From assembly GCF_988243305.1 (NCBI RefSeq), contig NZ_OZ547136.1: a DNA stretch of 64,000 nucleotides; one strand, given 5' to 3'. The position numbers and the translations under genes were made by a program. Positions 5,797 through 60,046 of the stretch are shown in pieces. The stretch's first letter is position 1; each line of letters opens with the position of its first letter. The notes under the pieces are model-generated. The model did not search any database. It saw only the letters and a list, made by a program, of their open reading frames with translations, and was not told the DNA's origin.

Positions 5797-5961
5797 ATGC
5801 CCTCCTGTCAGCACTCTGACTTAACCGTGGATGCAAGTCTAAGCCTACGAAGATAAACTCTGTTTCGCAAGGTGACTATACCACACTCATTTCTGCAATA
5901 TCAGCGCCGCAACTGCACGTATTCCGTTACAATGGCCTCCTGATTCAAAAGGAGTTTTCTT

Positions 5962-6507
5962 ATGGCGCTTAAAGCGACAATTTATAAAGCGACGGTTAAT
6001 GTGGCCGATCTCGACCGCAACCAGTTTCTCGATGCCTCTCTGACGCTGGCGCGCCACCCTTCAGAAACCCAGGAGCGCATGATGCTGCGCCTGCTGGCGT
6101 GGCTGAAATATGCTGATGAACGTCTGCAATTTACCCGTGGTTTGTGTGCCGATGATGAGCCGGAAGCGTGGCTGCGTAACGATCACCTGGGCATTGATTT
6201 GTGGATTGAGCTGGGGCTGCCGGATGAGCGGCGGATTAAGAAAGCCTGCACCCAGGCCGCAGAAGTTGCGCTGTTTACCTATAATAGTCGGGCGGCGCAA
6301 ATCTGGTGGCAGCAAAATCAGAGCAAATGTGTGCAGTTTGCCAATCTTTCCATCTGGTATCTGGACGATGAACAACTGGCGAAAGTAAGCGCCTTTGCCG
6401 ATCGTACCATGACGCTGCAGGCAACGATTCAGGATGGCGTGATCTGGTTATCGGATGATAAGAATAATCTGGAAGTGAACTTAACCGTCTGGCAACAACC
6501 TTCATGA
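5962..6507 (+). CDS. yaeQ: YaeQ family protein
   Basis: 181 aa ORF whose stop overlaps the arfB start (operon coupling). Confidence 0.85.
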
Positions 6508-16879: not shown

Positions 16880-16956
<77 letters not shown>

Positions 16957-16998
16957 AATTTGCACGGCAAATTTGAAGAGGTTTTAACTACATGTTAT

Positions 16999-17074
16999 GG
17001 GGCTATAGCTCAGCTGGGAGAGCGCCTGCTTTGCACGCAGGAGGTCTGCGGTTCGATCCCGCATAGCTCCACCA
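16999..17074 (+). tRNA. alaV: tRNA-Ala (TGC anticodon) in the 16S-23S spacer
   Basis: GGGGCTATAGCTCAGCTGGGAGAGCGCCTGCTTTGCACGCAGGAGGTCTGCGGTTCGATCCCGCATAGCTCCACCA. Confidence 0.95.
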
Positions 17075-20431: not shown

Positions 20432-20508
20432 GGAGCGGTAGTTCAGTCGGTTAGAATACCTGCCTGTCACGCAGGGGGTCGCGGGTTCGAGTCCCGTCCG
20501 TTCCGCCA
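20432..20508 (+). tRNA. aspU: tRNA-Asp (GTC anticodon), distal gene of the rRNA operon
   Basis: GGAGCGGTAGTTCAGTCGGTTAGAATACCTGCCTGTCACGCAGGGGGTCGCGGGTTCGAGTCCCGTCCGTTCCGCCA. Confidence 0.95.
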
Positions 20509-28653: not shown

Positions 28654-28730
28654 GGAGCGGTAGTTCAGTCGGTTAGAATACCTGCCTGTCACGCAGGGGG
28701 TCGCGGGTTCGAGTCCCGTCCGTTCCGCCA
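28654..28730 (+). tRNA. aspV: tRNA-Asp (GTC), the island-associated copy
   Basis: Sequence identical to the tRNA-Asp at 20432..20508; followed by a hairpin and T-run at about 28758..28790. Confidence 0.95.
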
Positions 28731-51213: not shown

Positions 51214-53196
51214 ATGTCCTTAAAAGGTCTGCGCTTTACGCTGGAGGTTGACGGCCAGGAGCCGGACACCTTTGCAGTGGTGAATTTCAGGTTAATCCAG
51301 AACCAGTCATATCCGTTTGTGATGAGTGTGGATGTTGCCAGCGACTCTTTTATGCAGACGGCGGAGATGCTGCTGGAGAAGAAGGCGACACTGACCATCT
51401 GGCAGGGCGCAGTGGCGCAGCGTTATGTCACCGGCGTGGTGGCGGGTTTTGGCATGCAGGAGAATAACGGCTGGCAGATGCGTTATCACCTGCGTATTGA
51501 GCCGCCGTTATGGCGGTGCGGGCTGCGGCAGAACTTCCGTATCTTCCAGCAGCAGGATATCCGGACGATATCGGCCACGTTACTGAACGAGAACGGCGTC
51601 ACGGAGTGGACGCCGCTGTTTTATGAGGACCATCCGGCGCGGGAGTTCTGTGTCCAGTACGGGGAGTCGGACCTGGCGTTTCTGTCCCGGCTGTGGGCGG
51701 AGGAGGGAATTTTCTTCTTTGAGCGGTTTGCGGCGGACAGTCCGGAGCAGAAGCTGACGCTGTGCGACGATGTGGCGGGGCTGTCACAGGCGGGAGAGCT
51801 TCCGTTTAACCCGGACACATCGACAGGAGCGGAGACGGAGTGTGTCAGTATGTTCCGTTATGAGGCGCATGTCCGCCCGTCGTCGGTGCAGAGCCAGGAT
51901 TACACGTTTAAGGTGCCGGACTGGCCGGGGATGTATGAGCAGCAGGGTGAGAACCTGAACGGACAGCTGGCGCAGTATGAGATATTTGATTATCCGGGAA
52001 GGTTCAAGGACGAGCAGCACGGCAAGGATTTCACGCTGTACCAGATGGGCAGCCTGCGCAGTGATGCGGAAAAGGCCACAGGGCAGAGTAATTCACCGAA
52101 GCTGTGGCCGGGAACGCAGTTTACGCTGACGGGGCATCCGCAGAAGATGCTGAACCGTGAATGGCAGGTGGTACAGAGCATACTGTCAGGAAGCCAGCCG
52201 CAGGCGCTGCACGGCAGCCAGGGGAGAGGAACCACGCTGGGAAATCAGTTAGAGGTGATACCGGCAGACCGGACGTGGCGTCCACGGCTGCAAAGCAAAC
52301 CGAAGGTGGACGGGCCACAGAGCGCCATTGTCACCGGGCCTGCGGGAGAGGAAATCTTCTGCGACGAACATGGCCGGGTACGGGTGAAGTTCCACTGGGA
52401 CCGTTATCACGGGATGACGGAGGCGAGTTCATGCTGGGTGCGGGTATCGCAGGCGTGGGCGGGGCCGGGTTTCGGCAATCTGGCGATACCGCGGGTGGGT
52501 CAGGAGGTGATTGTTGATTTCCTGAACGGCGACCCGGACCAGCCGATAATCATGGGACGGACATACCATGAGGACAACCGTTCGCCGGGGAGTCTGCCGG
52601 GGACGAAGACGCAGATGACGATACGGTCGAAGACCTATAAAGGAAGCGGATTTAACGAACTGCGCTTTGAGGACGCCACAGATAAGGAACAGGTCTATAT
52701 TCACGCGCAGAAGAACATGGATACGGAAGTGCTGAATGACCGGACGACGGACGTGAAGCATGACCACACGGAAACCATTGGTAACGACCAGAAGATAACG
52801 GTGGGGTTGGGCCAGACGGTGAATGTGGGGAGCAAAAAGGAAGGTGGTCATGACCAGAAAGTGACGGTAGCGAACGATCAGCATCTCACGATAAAAAATG
52901 ACCGGCACAAGGTTGTAAATAACAACCAGACAAGCAAGGTGACGGGAACTGATACCGAAGAAGTCGTCAAAAAACAGAGTATTAAAATAGGTGATAATTA
53001 CGAACTGAAAGTTGAGCATGGTACAAAAATCATATCTGGGGACAGTATTGAGCTAATTTGTGGGCAGGGAGAGAGCGGGACTTGTTCCATAAAACTGGAG
53101 AAAACAGGAAAGATAATAATACGGGGGACGGAGTTTCTATTTGAGGCTACCGGTCCTGTAGATATTAAAGGAAAAGATATTCATCTGAACGGATAG
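51214..53196 (+). CDS. vgrG: T6SS spike protein VgrG (TssI), no C-terminal toxin extension
   Basis: 660 aa; gp27/gp5-like VgrG; C-terminal repeats (HDQKVTVANDQHLTIKNDRHKV); the 3' about 350 nt are visibly AT-richer than the rest. Confidence 0.92.
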   Translation: MSLKGLRFTLEVDGQEPDTFAVVNFRLIQNQSYPFVMSVDVASDSFMQTAEMLLEKKATLTIWQGAVAQRYVTGVVAGFGMQENNGWQMRYHLRIEPPLWRCGLRQNFRIFQQQDIRTISATLLNENGVTEWTPLFYEDHPAREFCVQYGESDLAFLSRLWAEEGIFFFERFAADSPEQKLTLCDDVAGLSQAGELPFNPDTSTGAETECVSMFRYEAHVRPSSVQSQDYTFKVPDWPGMYEQQGENLNGQLAQYEIFDYPGRFKDEQHGKDFTLYQMGSLRSDAEKATGQSNSPKLWPGTQFTLTGHPQKMLNREWQVVQSILSGSQPQALHGSQGRGTTLGNQLEVIPADRTWRPRLQSKPKVDGPQSAIVTGPAGEEIFCDEHGRVRVKFHWDRYHGMTEASSCWVRVSQAWAGPGFGNLAIPRVGQEVIVDFLNGDPDQPIIMGRTYHEDNRSPGSLPGTKTQMTIRSKTYKGSGFNELRFEDATDKEQVYIHAQKNMDTEVLNDRTTDVKHDHTETIGNDQKITVGLGQTVNVGSKKEGGHDQKVTVANDQHLTIKNDRHKVVNNNQTSKVTGTDTEEVVKKQSIKIGDNYELKVEHGTKIISGDSIELICGQGESGTCSIKLEKTGKIIIRGTEFLFEATGPVDIKGKDIHLNG

Positions 53197-53302: not shown

Positions 53303-54349
53303 ATGATAGAAATGAAAAATAACACACCATTTCCTTTGTTGTCATTTGAAAAATATGGTCGTTATGGTCTTTTGTTTGATGTTATTGCTATTAAAATGTC
53401 ATTGCGAATTAAAAATGGATTTTATGCTGATCTTGCTGAGTTTCAAAAAGAATTGTCCATGTCTGATGAATACTATGGGGAGTCTGAAACAAGTAGTCTA
53501 AAATCTGAAACAGACTTAGTTCTTTGTAAAAGAAATACAGATATTCACGTGACAGGTAGTGCTCATGCCCCTCCAGGGGATAAGTCTAAGTGGAAGGCTT
53601 GTGTGAGGGTTAATAGTTTTTCTAAAGAACTGAGTTTATCTGGTGTCCGCTACTTACAATATGAGCGAAATCGTTGGCAGATGAGCTTACCAGATAAAAT
53701 TATTAATGTTCCTCTACGCTATGAGCTTGCTTACGGTGGTATTTGGCAACCAGATGGTATGGAGAAATTGGTTTTTTCAGCAAACCCTGTAGGTTGTGGA
53801 TATTATCCTGATATTTCTCAACTTAATACAAGTTGTCAATATAAACTCCCACAAATAACCAGCTCTGCTTTGTCAGAAAACGCTACCATTTTTAATGGGG
53901 AATCTGACTTTTTTCAAGGTGTTGGCCCTGTATCTCGATGGTGGAAAAGTCGCCTCCAGTATGCAGGAACCTACAATGAAGTATGGCGTGAAAAGCGCTA
54001 TCCCTATTTGCCGGATGATTTTGATGAGCGGTTCTACAATAGTGCTCATCCGGATATGATATACACGGGGTTTCTCTCTGGCGATGAAAACATCTCTCTT
54101 GAAGGTTTTTTTAAATTTGAACAGGTTGTTAAGACAAAATTGCCAGGTATACGACCTGTACTTATATTAAAAACCAAGCATAATACATCACATATGTTCT
54201 TACCTGTTGCGGATACAATGGTTATCGATTTAAGTCGACAGGAAATATACCTTACCTGGAGATTAACAATACCTGATTTTTTTGGAATGAAAGAAGGAGT
54301 GCTGAGTTGTATTATTCCTGAATGTATAGGGAAAAAATATTATGGGTAA
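53303..54349 (+). CDS. Putative T6SS adaptor protein (DUF2169-like)
   Basis: 348 aa AT-rich gene immediately downstream of vgrG and translationally coupled (8 nt overlap) to a PAAR-like effector gene, the canonical DUF2169 context; assignment is by context and size, not verified by search. Confidence 0.5.
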   Translation: MIEMKNNTPFPLLSFEKYGRYGLLFDVIAIKMSLRIKNGFYADLAEFQKELSMSDEYYGESETSSLKSETDLVLCKRNTDIHVTGSAHAPPGDKSKWKACVRVNSFSKELSLSGVRYLQYERNRWQMSLPDKIINVPLRYELAYGGIWQPDGMEKLVFSANPVGCGYYPDISQLNTSCQYKLPQITSSALSENATIFNGESDFFQGVGPVSRWWKSRLQYAGTYNEVWREKRYPYLPDDFDERFYNSAHPDMIYTGFLSGDENISLEGFFKFEQVVKTKLPGIRPVLILKTKHNTSHMFLPVADTMVIDLSRQEIYLTWRLTIPDFFGMKEGVLSCIIPECIGKKYYG

Positions 54350-55382
54350 CTATCATATCGGGGATGGTGAATGTAGATTTAGAGTCGTGTGTTCTTCACC
54401 AGATGTATGTGAAGTAGGAGGTTACAAGGTTCCTTTTGACAGTTACCAGACTTTAGATAGTGAAAGACAGTACAGTTCAACGGTATGGGCGCGTGGATGC
54501 AGAGCTTTAAATGTTGGTTCAGTGATTGCTGGAACTCAAAGTAATGCCGGTAAAGGTGTCATATCCGGTACATCTCAAGGAACGGGTGACTGTGTTATTT
54601 TAACGGGAAGTCCGACTGTAACAATAGAAGGGAAACCTGTTGCTTATCATGGTTCAGTTGTTGGGATTAATAACCATAACTGCCTTGGTAAATTGTATAC
54701 CAAAATAAAATCACCAATGATTTCTGTCATTGATAAAACTTTTAGTTATGAAAGGACTGCTGAAGTAATACACGATTTACTGCTTCTGAAGGATCTCCTT
54801 TCTGTTGGGAATATTTTGGGCGGAGATATTTCACCTGAGGTTAAAAATGATTTATTTCAAATAAAAGATCCTGACCAATCATGGGGGGAGTTTTTTTCAA
54901 TAAAGAATATCAGAGAATCTCTCAGGAATGGTATTGAAGGAGATAAATCTCAGATCAGAGAATGGTTTGGAGAGAACACACTTACTCAAATGGGCAATGG
55001 AGCAATCACCACTTTACATGGTGTGGCGGATTTAGCCTTAGTTACATTCGATGCTCTGTTAGATACGGCAACGGCAACGGTTGCTTGCCCGATAGGCGAA
55101 GATGGGTTATGTGAACAGGCAAATATAAATTTAAATGAAAAAGAACAGGCTTTATTTAATATTAGTAATTCATTGATAAATGGGCAAGCATGGGATGCAC
55201 TTAAAAAAATGATAATGGATACAAATAATGGTGATCAGATTGCTCTGGAGCATTTTGCCAGCTTTTTATGGGGCTTTATGATACCCGCAAAAATACCAGA
55301 AGAAAATATCTCTGGGAAAGTATTTGTAGAGCCAGTAGTTTTAGAAGGTGGTGCTGGTGGCAATTGGACAGTATTTGATTAG
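54342..55382 (+). CDS. PAAR-like (DUF4150-type) T6SS effector, N-terminal and linker portion; ends at an in-frame TAG
   Basis: 346 aa; N-terminal about 125 aa with the DUF4150-like pattern (GTGDCVILTGSPTVTIEGKPVAYHGSVVGINNHNCLG); helical central region; the stop TAG at 55380..55382 is in frame with the following toxin-like ORF. Confidence 0.6.
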   Translation: MGNYHIGDGECRFRVVCSSPDVCEVGGYKVPFDSYQTLDSERQYSSTVWARGCRALNVGSVIAGTQSNAGKGVISGTSQGTGDCVILTGSPTVTIEGKPVAYHGSVVGINNHNCLGKLYTKIKSPMISVIDKTFSYERTAEVIHDLLLLKDLLSVGNILGGDISPEVKNDLFQIKDPDQSWGEFFSIKNIRESLRNGIEGDKSQIREWFGENTLTQMGNGAITTLHGVADLALVTFDALLDTATATVACPIGEDGLCEQANINLNEKEQALFNISNSLINGQAWDALKKMIMDTNNGDQIALEHFASFLWGFMIPAKIPEENISGKVFVEPVVLEGGAGGNWTVFD

Positions 55383-55409
55383 GTTTTAGATTCAAATGTA
55401 ATAAAGCAA

Positions 55410-55781
55410 TTGACTTTAACAGGCTGTGGAGCGGCCTGTGGGGAAATGTTGCTTAGGGATAGGTATATTTTTGTCACGCAAAATGTAATTGGAACAGAAT
55501 TAACATCTATGACGTCGCTGGCAAACAAGCTTAATAAATTTGATGTCGGCTGGGAAGGGAATGAAGTGAGCGAATCTAGTTTATATGCCCTCAGTAATAC
55601 TGGTTCATGGGGAGCAATGATGTGGGATTCTGGAAGTAAAGTAGGGCATTGGGTACTTGTTAAGGGTGTTGATGATGCTGGGAATGTGATAATATATGAT
55701 CCATATCAAGGGAGTCGATATCTGATGACTGAACAGGAATTTAAGGAGGTATGGAATGGGCATAGTGTTTACAAACCATAA
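55410..55781 (+). pseudogene. Papain/C39-like cysteine-peptidase toxin domain, in frame with the upstream PAAR ORF (split by one TAG codon)
   Basis: 123 codons with no ATG or RBS before the putative catalytic Cys (GCGAACGEMLL); His (GHWVLVKG) and Asp (DDAGNVIIYDP) complete a papain-like Cys-His-Asp order reminiscent of peptidase C39; continuous with ORF 54342..55382 except for one TAG. Confidence 0.45.
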
Positions 55782-56046
55782 TATTGATTTGTTATCGGTT
55801 GAATTTGATGAGATTACAAAAAATTGTAATTACACTTTTAGTGTAGATGGAGAGACGGCTATCTTTACTGCTAGAATATCAATAATAAGAAATATAAAGG
55901 GAATTAAATATAGCGAAGAACTTGATAAATTTATAATGTCAATAATGCCATTGCAGCCTAAAGTATCAAAAATTTTGGGAGGTGTTACTTGGGATTGTAT
56001 TTGTGGTAAGGAAGTTGGATTTCCTGTGAGATTAATTGGTAAGTGA
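55756..56046 (+). CDS. Candidate cognate immunity protein (cytoplasmic)
   Basis: 96 aa; strong RBS AAGGAGG 7 nt before the ATG; overlaps the last 26 nt of the toxin-domain ORF; no signal peptide. Confidence 0.5.
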   Translation: MGIVFTNHNIDLLSVEFDEITKNCNYTFSVDGETAIFTARISIIRNIKGIKYSEELDKFIMSIMPLQPKVSKILGGVTWDCICGKEVGFPVRLIGK

Positions 56047-56284
56047 AGGGTGGTGAGGTATTTCTATATTTTTTTTCGTGAAAGTCTTTAAAACTAAAAT
56101 TATCTTGTTGGGAGCCCAAGGTGAGATCATAAAACGTATTATTTTATAAATATTGTTATGCAGGGAAAGGTCAAGTAATGCTGCTTTTTTGTACTAAATA
56201 ATTCGCATTTTATGTTCAATAATTGAGGTGTTCCTTATTACCTAAAGCTGTTTTTCATTGCTTATACATGATCAAATACTCATT

Positions 56285-57130
56285 GCATAATTAAGGGGGC
56301 AAAATGGAACTTAAAAAATTGATGGAACATATTTCTGTTATCCCCGATTACAGGCAAGCCTGGAAAGTGGAACATAAATTGCCAGATATTCTATCTGTTA
56401 ACTATTTGCGCCGTTATTTCTGGTGCATAAGGCTGGGAAGATATAGAGGATTTGGGGAAACACATCTCGATTTTTTGAAGTGATATGGTGATTTTGAAAA
56501 TGGTATTCCTGTTCACGATATCATTGCCAGAGTTGTATCCTGTATCAGTCCTGCAAAATTTTACGAGTGCTTTATTAACTGGATGCGTGACTGTCATTCT
56601 TCAGATGATAAAGACATCATCGCAATTGATGGAAAAACGCTCCGGCACTCTTATGATAAAAGTCGTCAAAAGGGAGCAATTTATGTCATTAAAATCCGTC
56701 TTCATATTGTTTGCATGTCTCTGATGAATTTATTGATTTTACGTTTGAATGGAAAGGGCTGAAGAAATTATGCATGGCAGTCTCATTTCGCTCAATAATA
56801 GCAGAACAAAAGAAAAATCCCGAAATGACGGTCAGATATTATAGCATTTCTGCTGATTTAACCGCAGAGAAGTTCGCCACAGCGAACCGAAATCACTGGC
56901 AAGTGGAGAATAAATTGCACTGGCATCTGGACGTGGTAATGAATAAAGACGACTTCAAAATAAGAAGAGGAAATGCAGCAGAATTATTTTCAGGGATACG
57001 GAAGATCGCTATTAATATTTTAACGAAAGATAAGATAATCAAGGCAGGGGCAAGATGTAAGATGTGAAAAGCAGCTGCGGACAGAGACTACCTCGCGTCA
57101 GTCCTTGCGGGGGCGGGCTTTCGTAATCTT
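56285..57130 (+). pseudogene. ISAs1-family (H-repeat-associated) transposase, degenerate: frameshifts plus internal deletion
   Basis: Segments matching the N-terminus ([26 protein letters not shown]...GETHLDFLK), middle ([10 protein letters not shown]...[19 protein letters not shown]) and C-terminus ([12 protein letters not shown]...[18 protein letters not shown]...[20 protein letters not shown]) of H-repeat transposases in different frames, with about 120 codons missing from the middle. Confidence 0.75.
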
Positions 57131-57295
57131 GTTCTGCAAGGGATGATAAAAAGTGCAACTTTATTCCACGCAGCTATTTAGACAGCGTACAGTAAACAAA
57201 CGAAAGTTGTTATTTCAATGGTCAGGGCAAGAGCATGAAGTGTTTACTACACACTATGCTCTTGTCCTGGAGTCAGGTCTTGTCTGGAGGGATAA

Positions 57296-57799
57296 ATGGT
57301 AGATATTGTCGAGGCCGATAAAACGGATATTTATTTCATTCAGGAGAGTGTTTATGGCAAAATCGGGTTGCCAGCTTTGGGTAATACAATAGGACCATCC
57401 GCACAGCAAGTTGTTAAAAAGGTATTCGCTGTCGTTAAAGAACGAGATAAGACACATGCAAAACAGAGATTATTGTTGGAATATAATGGTAACAAACTCT
57501 GGATGAATGCTATTGATGGCAGTGAAGCTATCCTACCAACAGAATTTTCTAAGCGGTACGAACTTTCATTATTCAATACTACTAATTTTGGAGAAGATCC
57601 TTTTCCTGATGTTAATTTATATAATAATATGAAATCAAGTTTTTTTGTAAGGTTTGGTGGAACATCCCATCCCGAGGCTTGGGCTATTTATAATGCAAGT
57701 ACGAAAGAGGTTAAATATATAGAAACTGCAAGAGAAATTGATAAAATATTCAGTGATTTTAACTTGAGTGGTACATTGCCAATTCACATTGGTCAATGA
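57296..57799 (+). CDS. Hypothetical protein (cysteine-free, no signal peptide)
   Basis: 167 aa ORF with strong RBS (GGAGGG) 6 nt upstream; AT-rich; between the two ISAs1 fragments; no recognisable family. Confidence 0.45.
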   Translation: MVDIVEADKTDIYFIQESVYGKIGLPALGNTIGPSAQQVVKKVFAVVKERDKTHAKQRLLLEYNGNKLWMNAIDGSEAILPTEFSKRYELSLFNTTNFGEDPFPDVNLYNNMKSSFFVRFGGTSHPEAWAIYNASTKEVKYIETAREIDKIFSDFNLSGTLPIHIGQ

Positions 57800-57864
57800 T
57801 TTTTAAATTGTGTGATTAAATAATTGAACATTAATGATGATTTATAGCATCATTATTCTATAAC

Positions 57865-58377
57865 ATGAATAAACGGATTGAATGTGTTATGTTAAAAATG
57901 AGTTTATACGTAATAATATTGTTATTTTCCTTTCAGATTAGTGCAGCCATTACTAGCAAGGAAAGTGAGGTTGTTTCACCATTATTAATGGATGTTAATT
58001 CTTCACTAACAATGGAAAATATATCTGAATTATCCACATCATCGGAACCATCGCAACAGGGGGTATTTCCTGTAATATGTACTCGACTTCATCCTGGCTC
58101 CGTAATGAAACGCCAGTTATTAACCGGCTGGGGGCCTGTTTTTATAATTGGTGATGATCCTTTTTCTCTGCGCTGGATGAGTGAACATCTGGAGATCCTT
58201 AAATCGCTAAATGCCCTTGGTTTGGTTGTTAATGTTGAATCAGTAGAACGAATGGAGGTATTACAGCAGCGGGCTGATGGGTTATTGTTATTGCCAGTTA
58301 TCTGCGATAATTTCGTGCAAACTCTGCAATTAAATGCTTATCCGGTATTAATCACAGAGATGGAAATATCACAATGA
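57865..58377 (+). CDS. Hypothetical exported protein (signal peptide)
   Basis: 170 aa ORF with N-terminal signal-like segment (MLKMSLYVIILLFSFQISAAITS); AT-rich; no recognisable family. Confidence 0.45.
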   Translation: MNKRIECVMLKMSLYVIILLFSFQISAAITSKESEVVSPLLMDVNSSLTMENISELSTSSEPSQQGVFPVICTRLHPGSVMKRQLLTGWGPVFIIGDDPFSLRWMSEHLEILKSLNALGLVVNVESVERMEVLQQRADGLLLLPVICDNFVQTLQLNAYPVLITEMEISQ

Positions 58378-58394
58378 TTAATAACATAATTACT

Positions 58395-58640
58395 GCAAAT
58401 AATATCGTAATTTTGAAAATGGTAATCCTGTTCACGACACCATAATTAGAGTTATGTCTTGTATCCGTTCAGTATAATTTCACGAATGCTTTATTAACTG
58501 GATGCGAGATTGCCATTCATCAAATGATAAAGACGTCATCGCAATTGATGGAAAAGCGCTTCCACACTCCTATGATAAAAGTGGTCGCAGGAGAGCGGGC
58601 TTTCGTAGTCATACCCCGACTCTCCCCAGCCCTAAACACA
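58395..58640 (+). pseudogene. yafF: ISAs1-family (H-repeat) transposase fragment, second copy (yafF-like remnant)
   Basis: About 220 bp direct repeat of 56490..56700 encoding FENGNPVHDTI...[35 protein letters not shown], adjacent to yafV. Confidence 0.7.
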
Positions 58641-58648
58641 ACCCCCAC

Positions 58649-59428
58649 TCACCACAACCTAAACTCATCCGCATCCCGCCATGCCGGAAACTTTTCTCTA
58701 TACTCCCGCAACGCCATCATCGACAGCTCCGCATCAATGCGCGTTGCCTGATGCGCGTCGGCAGTAGCGATAATCTCGCCTTGCGGATTAATCACCCGGC
58801 TGTCACCACGATAATGGCAGCCGTTGCCATCGCTGCCGACGCGATTGCATCCCGCCACATACGCCTGATTCTCAATCGCGCGGGCTGTCAGCAATGCCTG
58901 CCAGTGCAGAGAGCGCGGAGCAGGCCAGTTGGCGACGTACAGGGCGAGGTCATAATCGTTGAGATTGCGCGACCACACCGGAAAACGTAAGTCGTAGCAC
59001 ACCAGCGGCAAAATACGCCAGCCGCGCCATTCCACAATCACTCGCGCATTGCCCGCTTTATAATGTAGATGCTCATCTGCCATGCGGAACAGATGACGCT
59101 TATCATAAAAATGTACCGTGCCGCCCGGCTCAACCAGCAAAAAGCGGTTAACCGAACCAGACTCCGTTTGTAATGCAACACTGCCTGCAATCAGCGCATT
59201 GCACTGCTGCGCTTTGGCTGTCATCCAGTTCACTACGTCATCTTGTGCTAGCGACGAAGCTGCCGCTTCCATGGCAAAGCCGCTGGTAAACATCTCCGGT
59301 AGAACGATCACATCGCGTCCGGTAATACCTTCCAGTTGACGATCAAAATGACGCAGGTTGGCAGGACCATCCATCCACACCAGTGGTTGCTGCAAAAGCG
59401 TAATCTTCAAACCAGGCACGGTGTACAA
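58649..59428 (-). CDS. yafV: Omega-amidase (nitrilase/CN-hydrolase family)
   Basis: 259 aa ORF with carbon-nitrogen hydrolase features (catalytic-Cys region LVCYDLRFP); core-genome position before ivy. Confidence 0.85.
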
Positions 59429-59572: not shown

Positions 59573-60046
59573 ATGGGCAGGATAAGCTCGGGAGGAATGA
59601 TGTTTAAGGCAATAACGACAGTCGCCGCTCTGGTCATCGCCACCAGTGCAATGGCGCAGGATGATTTAACCATTAGCAGCCTTGCAAAGGGCGAAACCAC
59701 CAAAGCTGCGTTTAATCAGATGGTGCAAGGGCATAAGCTACCTGCATGGGTGATGAAAGGCGGTACTTATACTCCCGCACAAACCGTAACGTTGGGAGAT
59801 GAGACGTATCAGGTGATGAGCGCGTGCAAACCGCATGACTGTGGCTCGCAACGTATCGCTGTGATGTGGTCCGAGAAATCTAATCAGATGACGGGGCTGT
59901 TCTCGACTATTGATGAGAAAACGTCGCAAGAGAAACTCACCTGGTTGAATGTGAACGATGCGCTTTCGATTGATGGTAAAACGGTGCTGTTCGCGGCGTT
60001 GACCGGCAGCCTGGAAAACCATCCGGATGGCTTTAATTTTAAATAA
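59573..60046 (+). CDS. ivy: Inhibitor of vertebrate lysozyme (periplasmic)
   Basis: 157 aa ORF with signal peptide (VAALVIATSAMAQDD) and CKPHDC loop motif. Confidence 0.88.
   Translation: MGRISSGGMMFKAITTVAALVIATSAMAQDDLTISSLAKGETTKAAFNQMVQGHKLPAWVMKGGTYTPAQTVTLGDETYQVMSACKPHDCGSQRIAVMWSEKSNQMTGLFSTIDEKTSQEKLTWLNVNDALSIDGKTVLFAALTGSLENHPDGFNFK

What the first reader, a model, noticed from the sequence alone, without database searches (positions are those of the whole stretch)
55756..56046. Small gene overlapping the toxin 3' end is a candidate cognate immunity protein
A 96-codon ORF starts 7 nt after a near-perfect Shine-Dalgarno (AAGGAGG) and overlaps the last 26 nt of the toxin-domain ORF, the usual effector-immunity coupling. 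It has no signal peptide, which fits a cytoplasm-acting toxin such as a protease. It has no recognisable family, as is usual for immunity proteins.
Basis: inference. Interest (0 to 1): 0.6.

Follow-up and report, generated by a model that had tools for sequence, protein, structure and literature searches.

The report
Known T6SS immunity gene cpi1

Summary
A 96-codon ORF lies at 55756..56046 (+). AAGGAGG sits 6 nt upstream of its ATG, and it overlaps the end of the toxin ORF by 26 nt. The interpretation also holds, but it is already known. The product is 100% identical over all 96 residues to Cpi1 (PDB 9L5U chain C; RefSeq WP_000513317.1; Swiss-Prot CPI1_ECOU5).

Cpi1 is the cognate immunity protein of the T6SS effector Cpe1, which has a PAAR-like domain and a C39 papain-like protease domain (Song et al., PLoS Biol 2025, PMC12136450). 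That paper showed rescue of toxicity, pull-down, a 1.87 Å complex structure and a Kd of 8.6 nM. It also showed that Cpi1 binds a hydrophobic exosite of Cpe1 and competes with the substrates GyrB and ParE, rather than plugging the active site.

cpi1 occurs in 332 of 5426 complete E. coli genomes, always with the cpe1 toxin region. What is particular to this window is that cpe1 is a pseudogene. It carries an in-frame amber codon (E347*, 55380) in the linker before the protease domain, plus A408E at an exosite residue. Only 2 of the 332 genomes carry these alleles. cpi1 is therefore probably an orphaned immunity gene that still protects against Cpe1-armed kin. Interest is low; novelty is "already known".

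The parts
55756..56046 (+). cpi1: 96-aa cytoplasmic immunity protein Cpi1, intact
   Evidence: 100% identical over residues 1-96 to PDB 9L5U chain C 'Cpi1' and to S88 WP_000513317.1. The interface residues I47, M61, M64 and K72 are present. There are no Pfam or NCBIfam HMM hits.
55743..55749 (+). Shine-Dalgarno AAGGAGG, 6-nt spacer before the cpi1 ATG, lying inside the cpe1 coding sequence
   Evidence: It is the only such motif in the window, though 0.61 are expected by chance.
54342..55781 (+). cpe1 pseudogene of 479 codons: PAAR-like (DUF4150) N-terminal domain, an entry-domain homologue, a linker and a C39 papain-like protease domain
   Evidence: Same length as S88 cpe1 with 10 substitutions. 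RefSeq annotates the intact gene as cpe1. Residues 189-477 of intact Cpe1 align to StbD-CT (8SSK_A, E 9.7e-83).
55380..55382 (+). Premature amber stop E347* (GAG->TAG), 10 codons after the GGAGG motif (residues 336-340), separating the carrier from the protease domain
   Evidence: This allele is in 2 of 5426 complete genomes and the intact allele is in 330. The exact 346-aa product was seen on 185 contigs.
55410..55781 (+). C39-type protease toxin domain (catalytic Cys362 at 55425..55427), not linked to its carrier in this window
   Evidence: Pfam Peptidase_C39, E 3.4e-06. It matches 9L5U_A with E 6.6e-82, differing only by A408E.
55563..55565 (+). Codon 408, GCA->GAA (A408E), at a residue of the hydrophobic exosite bound by Cpi1 and the substrates
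   Evidence: A408 is listed among the exosite residues in PMC12136450. The allele is in the same 2 genomes as E347*. The aligned residue in StbD is Phe.
53303..54349 (+). DUF2169-family T6SS accessory (adaptor) gene, overlapping the cpe1 start by 8 nt
   Evidence: RefSeq annotation of the near-identical loci.
51214..53196 (+). vgrG (tssI), the spike protein gene of the same operon
   Evidence: RefSeq annotation of the near-identical loci; ORF.
56304..57067 (+). Degenerate ISAs1-family transposase that bounds the effector-immunity module downstream
   Evidence: Fragmented ORFs. Annotated as a frameshifted / internal-stop pseudogene in S88 and Z1323HEC0462.

Best explanation
The ORF is cpi1, the immunity gene of the T6SS effector-immunity pair Cpe1/Cpi1 of extraintestinal and commensal E. 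coli.

Established for the identical protein. Cpe1 is delivered by the T6SS on the VgrG spike, with a DUF2169 adaptor and a PAAR-like N-terminal domain. [quoted passage not shown] This collapses DNA supercoiling and chromosome segregation. Cpi1 is a small cytoplasmic protein that binds with nanomolar affinity to a hydrophobic concave exosite next to the catalytic pocket. The active site stays open, but Cpi1 competitively excludes GyrB and ParE.

Shown by the sequence here. The cpi1 start codon lies 26 nt inside cpe1, behind a strong SD.

Inferred. This arrangement means cpi1 can be translated on its own as well as coupled to cpe1.

Inferred for this window. cpe1 is dead, through an amber stop at codon 347 in front of the protease domain and A408E in the exosite. 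cpi1 therefore no longer protects against self-intoxication. It most likely persists as an orphan immunity gene that protects the cell against Cpe1 fired by related E. coli.
For: - Identity: 96 of 96 residues match PDB 9L5U_C 'Cpi1'. The sequence equals S88 WP_000513317.1, which is annotated cpi1, and Swiss-Prot CPI1_ECOU5.
- Toxin: the upstream domain matches 9L5U_A with E 6.6e-82 and Pfam Peptidase_C39.
- Published experiments on this pair (PMC12136450): rescue of Cpe1tox toxicity; a 1.87 Å complex with a 1,050 Å2 interface at the exosite; loss of binding and protection in the I47/M61/M64/K72 quadruple mutant; displacement of the ParE ATPase domain; Kd 8.58 nM for Cpi1 against 343 nM for ParE.
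- Independent support from the CDI homologue StbD-CT/StbI (8SSM). [quoted passage not shown]
- Co-occurrence: cpi1 is in 332 genomes. The 55-mer around cpe1 codon 347 is in 330 genomes as the intact allele and 2 as the amber allele, which adds up to 332.
- The 26-nt overlap, with the immunity ATG inside the toxin's W-N-G codons, is conserved in a Salmonella plasmid CdiA-CT/immunity module.
- Pseudogene status of cpe1.
Against: Nothing argues against the identity of the gene. The uncertainties concern its state in this strain.
- Expression of cpi1 downstream of a premature stop was not tested, and Rho-dependent polarity could lower it.
- The promoter-like sites inside cpe1 are no more frequent than in shuffled sequence (9 found against 4.8 +/- 2.4).
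- cpi1 shows no substitutions against 10 in cpe1 between the window and S88. About 1.7 would be expected in 291 nt, so this does not prove purifying selection after the effector was lost.
- Song et al. note that cleavage-resistant GyrB and ParE did not protect cells, so Cpe1 may have further targets.
Confidence: 0.97

Rival explanations
1. In this strain cpi1 is a silent remnant. With cpe1 broken, the module is decaying and cpi1 is intact only because too little time has passed. It provides no protection.
For: cpe1 carries two disabling changes. The module is flanked by degenerate ISAs1 copies. The lack of substitutions in 291 nt is not statistically informative, since about 1.7 would be expected. 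No significant promoter signal was found.
Against: The ORF, start codon and strong SD are all intact. The sequence is identical in 331 of 332 genomes. The amber-allele lineage is widespread, with 185 contigs carrying the exact truncated product, yet both complete genomes that have it keep cpi1 identical (WP_000513317.1 in Z1323HEC0462). Retention of orphan immunity genes is a well-known pattern for T6SS and CDI loci (established knowledge).
Confidence: 0.2
2. The effector is still made, and cpi1 remains a true self-immunity gene. This could happen by readthrough or suppression of the amber codon, or by independent translation of the protease domain from TTG 55410. The latter would give a non-secreted toxin-antitoxin-like pair.
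For: The stop is a single in-frame TAG, so readthrough would restore a full-length protein. An ORF that includes catalytic Cys362 can be drawn from TTG 55410.
Against: There is no SD before 55410. The first ATG in frame (55446) lies after Cys362, so the product that RefSeq annotates lacks the nucleophile. A408E puts a charge into the hydrophobic exosite that the paper reports as critical for toxicity. No suppressor tRNA was seen among the 4 tRNAs of the window, although the rest of the genome is unknown.
Confidence: 0.04
3. The ORF is a chance open frame in AT-rich DNA and is not a gene.
For: The region has 30.6% GC. The SD+ATG motif is expected 0.61 times by chance in the window.
Against: The protein has been purified and crystallised (9L5U), shown to be functional, and has homologues at 31-32% identity in CDI loci.
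Confidence: 0

Closest known systems
Cpi1 of E. coli ATCC 11775 / UTI89 (PDB 9L5U chain C; Swiss-Prot CPI1_ECOU5; Song et al., PLoS Biol 2025, PMC12136450)
   Same: The 96-aa sequence, genomic position, overlap with cpe1 and T6SS context (vgrG, DUF2169 gene, cpe1, cpi1, ISAs1) are all identical.
   Different: In this window the partner cpe1 carries E347* and A408E, so the pair is not functional as an effector-immunity pair. Only 2 of 332 complete genomes share this state.
Tsap of ExPEC RS218 (Microbiol Spectr 2023, PMC10434152)
   Same: It is the same effector gene as cpe1. The peptide WDALKKMIMDT, from which the Tsap peptides were derived, is present in the window's ORF 54342..55382.
   Different: That paper treated the protein as a source of antimicrobial peptides. 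It did not describe the downstream immunity gene.
StbI (CdiI) of Citrobacter rodentium StbD-CT (PDB 8SSM chain C; bioRxiv 10.64898/2026.05.07.723447)
   Same: It is a homologous small immunity protein (E 6e-9; 32% identity over 80 aligned residues). It neutralises a homologous C39 protease that cleaves GyrB and ParE by binding an exosite rather than the active site. A close StbI homologue encoded on a Salmonella plasmid shows the same 26-nt overlap with its toxin gene.
   Different: Its partner toxin is delivered by a CdiA-like contact-dependent inhibition protein, not by the T6SS. The sequences have diverged, so cross-protection is not expected and was not tested.
Colicin DNase / rRNase immunity proteins (Im7, Im9, Im3)
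   Same: They use high-affinity exosite binding that leaves the catalytic centre unoccluded. Both papers draw this analogy.
   Different: The fold and sequence are unrelated, and the toxins are nucleases, not a protease.

Membership tests
Cpi1 (cysteine protease immunity protein 1) | Sequence identity to the characterised Cpi1 over its full length | tested here: met
   96 of 96 residues identical to 9L5U_C, to S88 WP_000513317.1 and to the CPI1_ECOU5 cluster entry.
Cpi1 (cysteine protease immunity protein 1) | Encoded immediately downstream of, and overlapping, a gene for a Cpe1-type C39 papain-like protease toxin domain | tested here: met
   26-nt overlap with ORF 55410..55781. That ORF matches Peptidase_C39 and 9L5U_A.
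Cpi1 (cysteine protease immunity protein 1) | Interface residues needed for Cpe1 binding (I47, M61, M64, K72) | tested here: met
   All four are present. Their role is taken from PMC12136450.
Cpi1 (cysteine protease immunity protein 1) | Binds Cpe1tox and neutralises its toxicity | not testable with these tools
   Shown experimentally for the identical sequence in PMC12136450. Not re-tested here.
Functional T6SS effector-immunity pair (in this window) | An intact, deliverable effector linked to its carrier domain | tested here: not met
   An in-frame TAG at codon 347 separates the PAAR-like carrier from the protease domain, and A408E alters the exosite. 330 other genomes carry the intact allele.
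Functional T6SS effector-immunity pair (in this window) | T6SS genomic context (vgrG, adaptor, PAAR-like effector) | tested here: met
   vgrG at 51214..53196, the DUF2169 gene at 53303..54349 and the PAAR-like ORF at 54342..55382. Annotation comes from near-identical RefSeq loci.
StbI / CdiI immunity family of C39 CDI toxins | Detectable sequence homology to StbI | tested here: met
   8SSM_C E 6e-9. BLASTP against the Salmonella plasmid homologue gives 31% identity, E 1e-13.
StbI / CdiI immunity family of C39 CDI toxins | Partner toxin is the C-terminal domain of a CdiA-type protein | tested here: not met
   Here the partner is a PAAR-like T6SS effector. The relationship is homology of the toxin-immunity cassette, not membership of a CDI system.

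The most novel reading that the evidence does not exclude
In a distinct E. coli lineage, cpi1 is kept as an orphan immunity gene after the toxin was knocked out twice. The lineage is represented by the window, Z1323HEC0462, NY1601 and 185 contigs that carry the exact truncated product. The first hit is an amber stop 10 codons after the predicted Gly-Gly auto-processing site, which leaves a PAAR-plus-entry-domain 'blank' spike tip. The second is A408E in the exosite shared by Cpi1 and the substrates. Two hits would suggest selection to disarm Cpe1 while keeping both T6SS firing and protection against armed relatives.
Probability: 0.3. Interest if true: 0.25.

Novelty: already known. Interest (0 to 1): 0.12.

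Why it matters
It matters little as a discovery. The gene, its partner, its structure and its mechanism were published in 2025, and it is named in RefSeq, Swiss-Prot and the PDB.

It is useful as a calibration point. That inference rested on a small ORF with a strong SD, an overlap with the end of a toxin domain, no signal peptide, and hence a cytoplasmic immunity protein for a protease toxin.

The only locally new information is that this strain belongs to a minority lineage with a disarmed cpe1 and an intact cpi1. This is an ordinary example of an immunity gene retained after effector decay.

Tried and rejected
- Pfam and NCBIfam profile searches of the ORF found nothing. Identity came from the PDB sequence search and from RefSeq annotation instead.
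- The SD+ATG motif statistic was not significant on its own.
- The promoter and terminator scan of 55200-56400 gave no signal above shuffled sequence. No intrinsic terminator was detected after cpi1 on the + strand.
- The tblastn search of plasmids found only one distant homologue, on a Salmonella Rubislaw IncF plasmid, so the module is essentially chromosomal in E. coli.
- I considered and rejected independent expression of an active protease fragment. There is no SD before TTG 55410, and the first in-frame ATG lies after Cys362.
- I did not run the large protein-database searches, structure prediction or fold search, because a crystal structure of the identical protein exists.
- The substitution pattern (0 changes in cpi1 against 10 in cpe1, compared with S88) is too sparse to test selection.

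Full report
**Observation.** The window contains a 96-codon ORF at 55756..56046 on the + strand.
- AAGGAGG lies at 55743..55749, six bases before the ATG.
- The ORF overlaps the last 26 nt (55756..55781) of the upstream ORF 55410..55781, in the +1 frame relative to it.
- No competing ORF of 50 aa or more lies on the other strand.
- The SD-plus-ATG motif occurs once in the 64 kb, but 0.61 are expected by chance. The motif alone therefore proves nothing.
- The product has no signal-peptide features: no K or R in the first ten residues, and the highest 19-residue hydropathy mean is 1.0.

**What it is.** A sequence search of the PDB gives a full-length, 96/96-identical match to chain C of entry 9L5U, molecule name 'Cpi1' (E 3.6e-62).
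- Megablast of 54342..56300 against 5,426 complete E. coli genomes finds the region at 99.3-99.9% identity in 300 genomes. Newer RefSeq annotations label the two genes 'cpe1: cysteine protease effector protein Cpe1' and 'cpi1: cysteine protease immunity protein Cpi1'. An example is E. coli S88, where the order is vgrG, DUF2169 accessory gene, cpe1, cpi1, ISAs1 pseudogene.
- The exact protein is also the Swiss-Prot entry CPI1_ECOU5 and was seen on at least 1000 contigs.
- The upstream ORF 55410..55781 matches Pfam Peptidase_C39 (E 3.4e-06). It matches chain A of 9L5U, the Cpe1 toxin domain, with a single substitution (E 6.6e-82).
- Profile libraries do not know Cpi1: there was no Pfam hit and no NCBIfam hit. 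This is why it looked family-less.

**How it works** (from the literature on the identical protein). Song et al., PLoS Biol 2025 (PMC12136450) showed the following.
- Cpe1 is a T6SS-delivered papain-like cysteine protease with catalytic Cys362. [quoted passage not shown] This disrupts supercoiling, chromosome segregation and division.
- Cpi1 rescues cells from Cpe1tox, co-purifies with it, and protects recipients in T6SS competition.
- In the 1.87 Å complex, Cpi1 does not occlude the active site. It covers a hydrophobic concave exosite formed by L387, M390, A408, M426, W428 and V434, with a 1,050 Å2 interface.
- A quadruple mutant of I47, M61, M64 and K72 loses both binding and protection.
- Cpi1 displaces the ParE ATPase domain from Cpe1(C362A). 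It binds about 40-fold more tightly (Kd 8.58 nM against 343 nM).
- All four Cpi1 interface residues are present in the window's ORF.

An independent preprint on the CDI homologue StbD-CT/StbI of Citrobacter rodentium (bioRxiv 10.64898/2026.05.07.723447) reaches the same picture. StbI (8SSM_C) is a detectable homologue of Cpi1 (E 6e-9; 32% identity over 80 aligned positions). [quoted passage not shown]

The effector had earlier been named Tsap in ExPEC RS218 (PMC10434152). Its source peptide WDALKKMIMDT is present in the window's ORF 54342..55382.

- cpi1 alone is found in 332 of 5,426 complete genomes, once per genome, always chromosomal, and at 99% identity or more in 331.
- I used a 55-mer centred on cpe1 codon 347, designed so that megablast's 28-base word must include the variable base. 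It matches 330 genomes with the intact allele and 2 with the window's allele, which totals 332.
- The counts therefore fit cpi1 never occurring without the toxin region, and the reverse. I compared counts only, not lists of records.
- In O145:H28 RM12581 an identical cpi1 follows a toxin-domain fragment behind a truncated vgrG at a different locus, between yncG and pptA.
- Outside E. coli, a Salmonella Rubislaw IncF plasmid carries an orphan CdiA-CT module downstream of a hemagglutinin-repeat gene. Its C39 toxin ORF (L005 5229..5975) is overlapped by exactly 26 nt by an unannotated 95-aa homologue of Cpi1 (5950..6237; 31% identity, E 1e-13). In both cases the immunity ATG sits in the toxin's W-N-G codons (TGGAATGG).
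- The overlap geometry is thus a conserved property of the cassette. It fits translational coupling, which is an inference.

**What is particular to this window.** Aligned with S88, the 1,705-nt cpe1-cpi1 stretch has the same length and ten substitutions, all in cpe1. Two of them matter.
- G-to-T at 55380 turns codon 347 (GAG, Glu) into an amber stop.
- C-to-A at 55564 gives A408E. This places a charged residue at one of the six exosite residues named above. The aligned residue in StbD is Phe.

Both alleles occur together in only two complete genomes: Z1323HEC0462 (human, South Korea) and NY1601 (chicken faeces). The exact 346-aa truncated product was nevertheless seen on 185 contigs. It is therefore a real lineage allele and not a sequencing error.

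The stop lies ten codons after the GGAGG motif (residues 336-340). That motif aligns with the G157-G158 auto-processing site of StbD-CT, and Cpe1 residues 189-336 align with the StbD-CT cytoplasm-entry domain. The truncated protein thus keeps the PAAR-like and entry domains but lacks the protease.

An active free protease is unlikely. TTG 55410 has no SD, and the first in-frame ATG (55446) lies after Cys362.

I infer that cpi1 is here an orphaned immunity gene. Its own strong SD allows translation independent of cpe1. Its most plausible remaining role is protection against Cpe1 fired by related strains. Expression was not tested, and the sparse substitutions cannot show selection.

**Comparison and novelty.**
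- By sequence identity, position, interface residues and T6SS context, the ORF is Cpi1.
- It is homologous to, but not part of, the CDI StbD/StbI system.
- It works like colicin immunity proteins in using an exosite, though it is unrelated to them in sequence.
- The pair in this window fails the test for a functional effector-immunity pair only because the effector is broken.
- Nothing here is new in kind. The gene is already named, crystallised and mechanistically explained. The orphan state next to a decayed effector is a familiar pattern.
- Interest is low (0.12).

Noticed in passing
window 55380..55382 and 55563..55565: cpe1 is a pseudogene in this window. It has an amber stop at codon 347, 10 codons after the GGAGG motif that aligns with the StbD-CT auto-processing site. 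It also has A408E at an exosite residue. Both alleles occur together in only 2 of 5426 complete genomes, but the exact truncated product is on 185 contigs.
   Followed up: yes
L005 5229..6237 (Salmonella Rubislaw plasmid CP074295.1, record 120429..121437): An orphan CdiA-CT C39 toxin module lies downstream of a hemagglutinin-repeat gene. Its 95-aa Cpi1/StbI-like immunity ORF is not annotated in the record. It overlaps the toxin ORF by the same 26 nt, with the ATG inside the toxin's W-N-G codons.
   Followed up: partly
L003 4691..5291 (E. coli O145:H28 RM12581): A second genomic home of the cassette. A toxin-domain fragment plus an identical cpi1 sit behind a truncated vgrG and a small PAAR gene between yncG and pptA, not at the yafV locus.
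   Followed up: partly
window 53303..56046 versus 51214..53196: There is a sharp drop in GC at the cargo module: the DUF2169 gene 37%, cpe1 39% and cpi1 30.6%, against vgrG 55% and the window 51%. This fits a horizontally exchanged adaptor-effector-immunity cassette.
   Followed up: partly
window 56304..58751: Degenerate ISAs1 transposase fragments (about 56304..57067 and 58502..58751) bracket two ORFs. One is a 167-aa ORF with no family hit (57296..57799). The other is a 170-aa protein with a signal-peptide-like N-terminus that matches the PFL_4695 integrating-conjugative-element family (TIGR03765, E 2.2e-35; 57865..58377).
   Followed up: partly
window 16880..17074, 20432..20508, 28654..28730: tRNA-Ile and tRNA-Ala lie in a stretch without long ORFs (probably an rRNA operon spacer), followed by two tRNA-Asp genes. 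The second tRNA-Asp lies just before the block of long ORFs from about 30 to 56 kb that ends in the vgrG-cpe1-cpi1 module. It is probably the insertion site of the T6SS island, whose far end is yafV (58649..59428, - strand) and ivy (59573..60046).
   Followed up: no
window 54342..55382 (residues about 283-293): The peptide WDALKKMIMDT, which was modified into the 'Tsap' antimicrobial peptides (PMC10434152), lies in the stretch (residues 189-336) that aligns with the StbD-CT entry domain, not in the protease domain.
   Followed up: no
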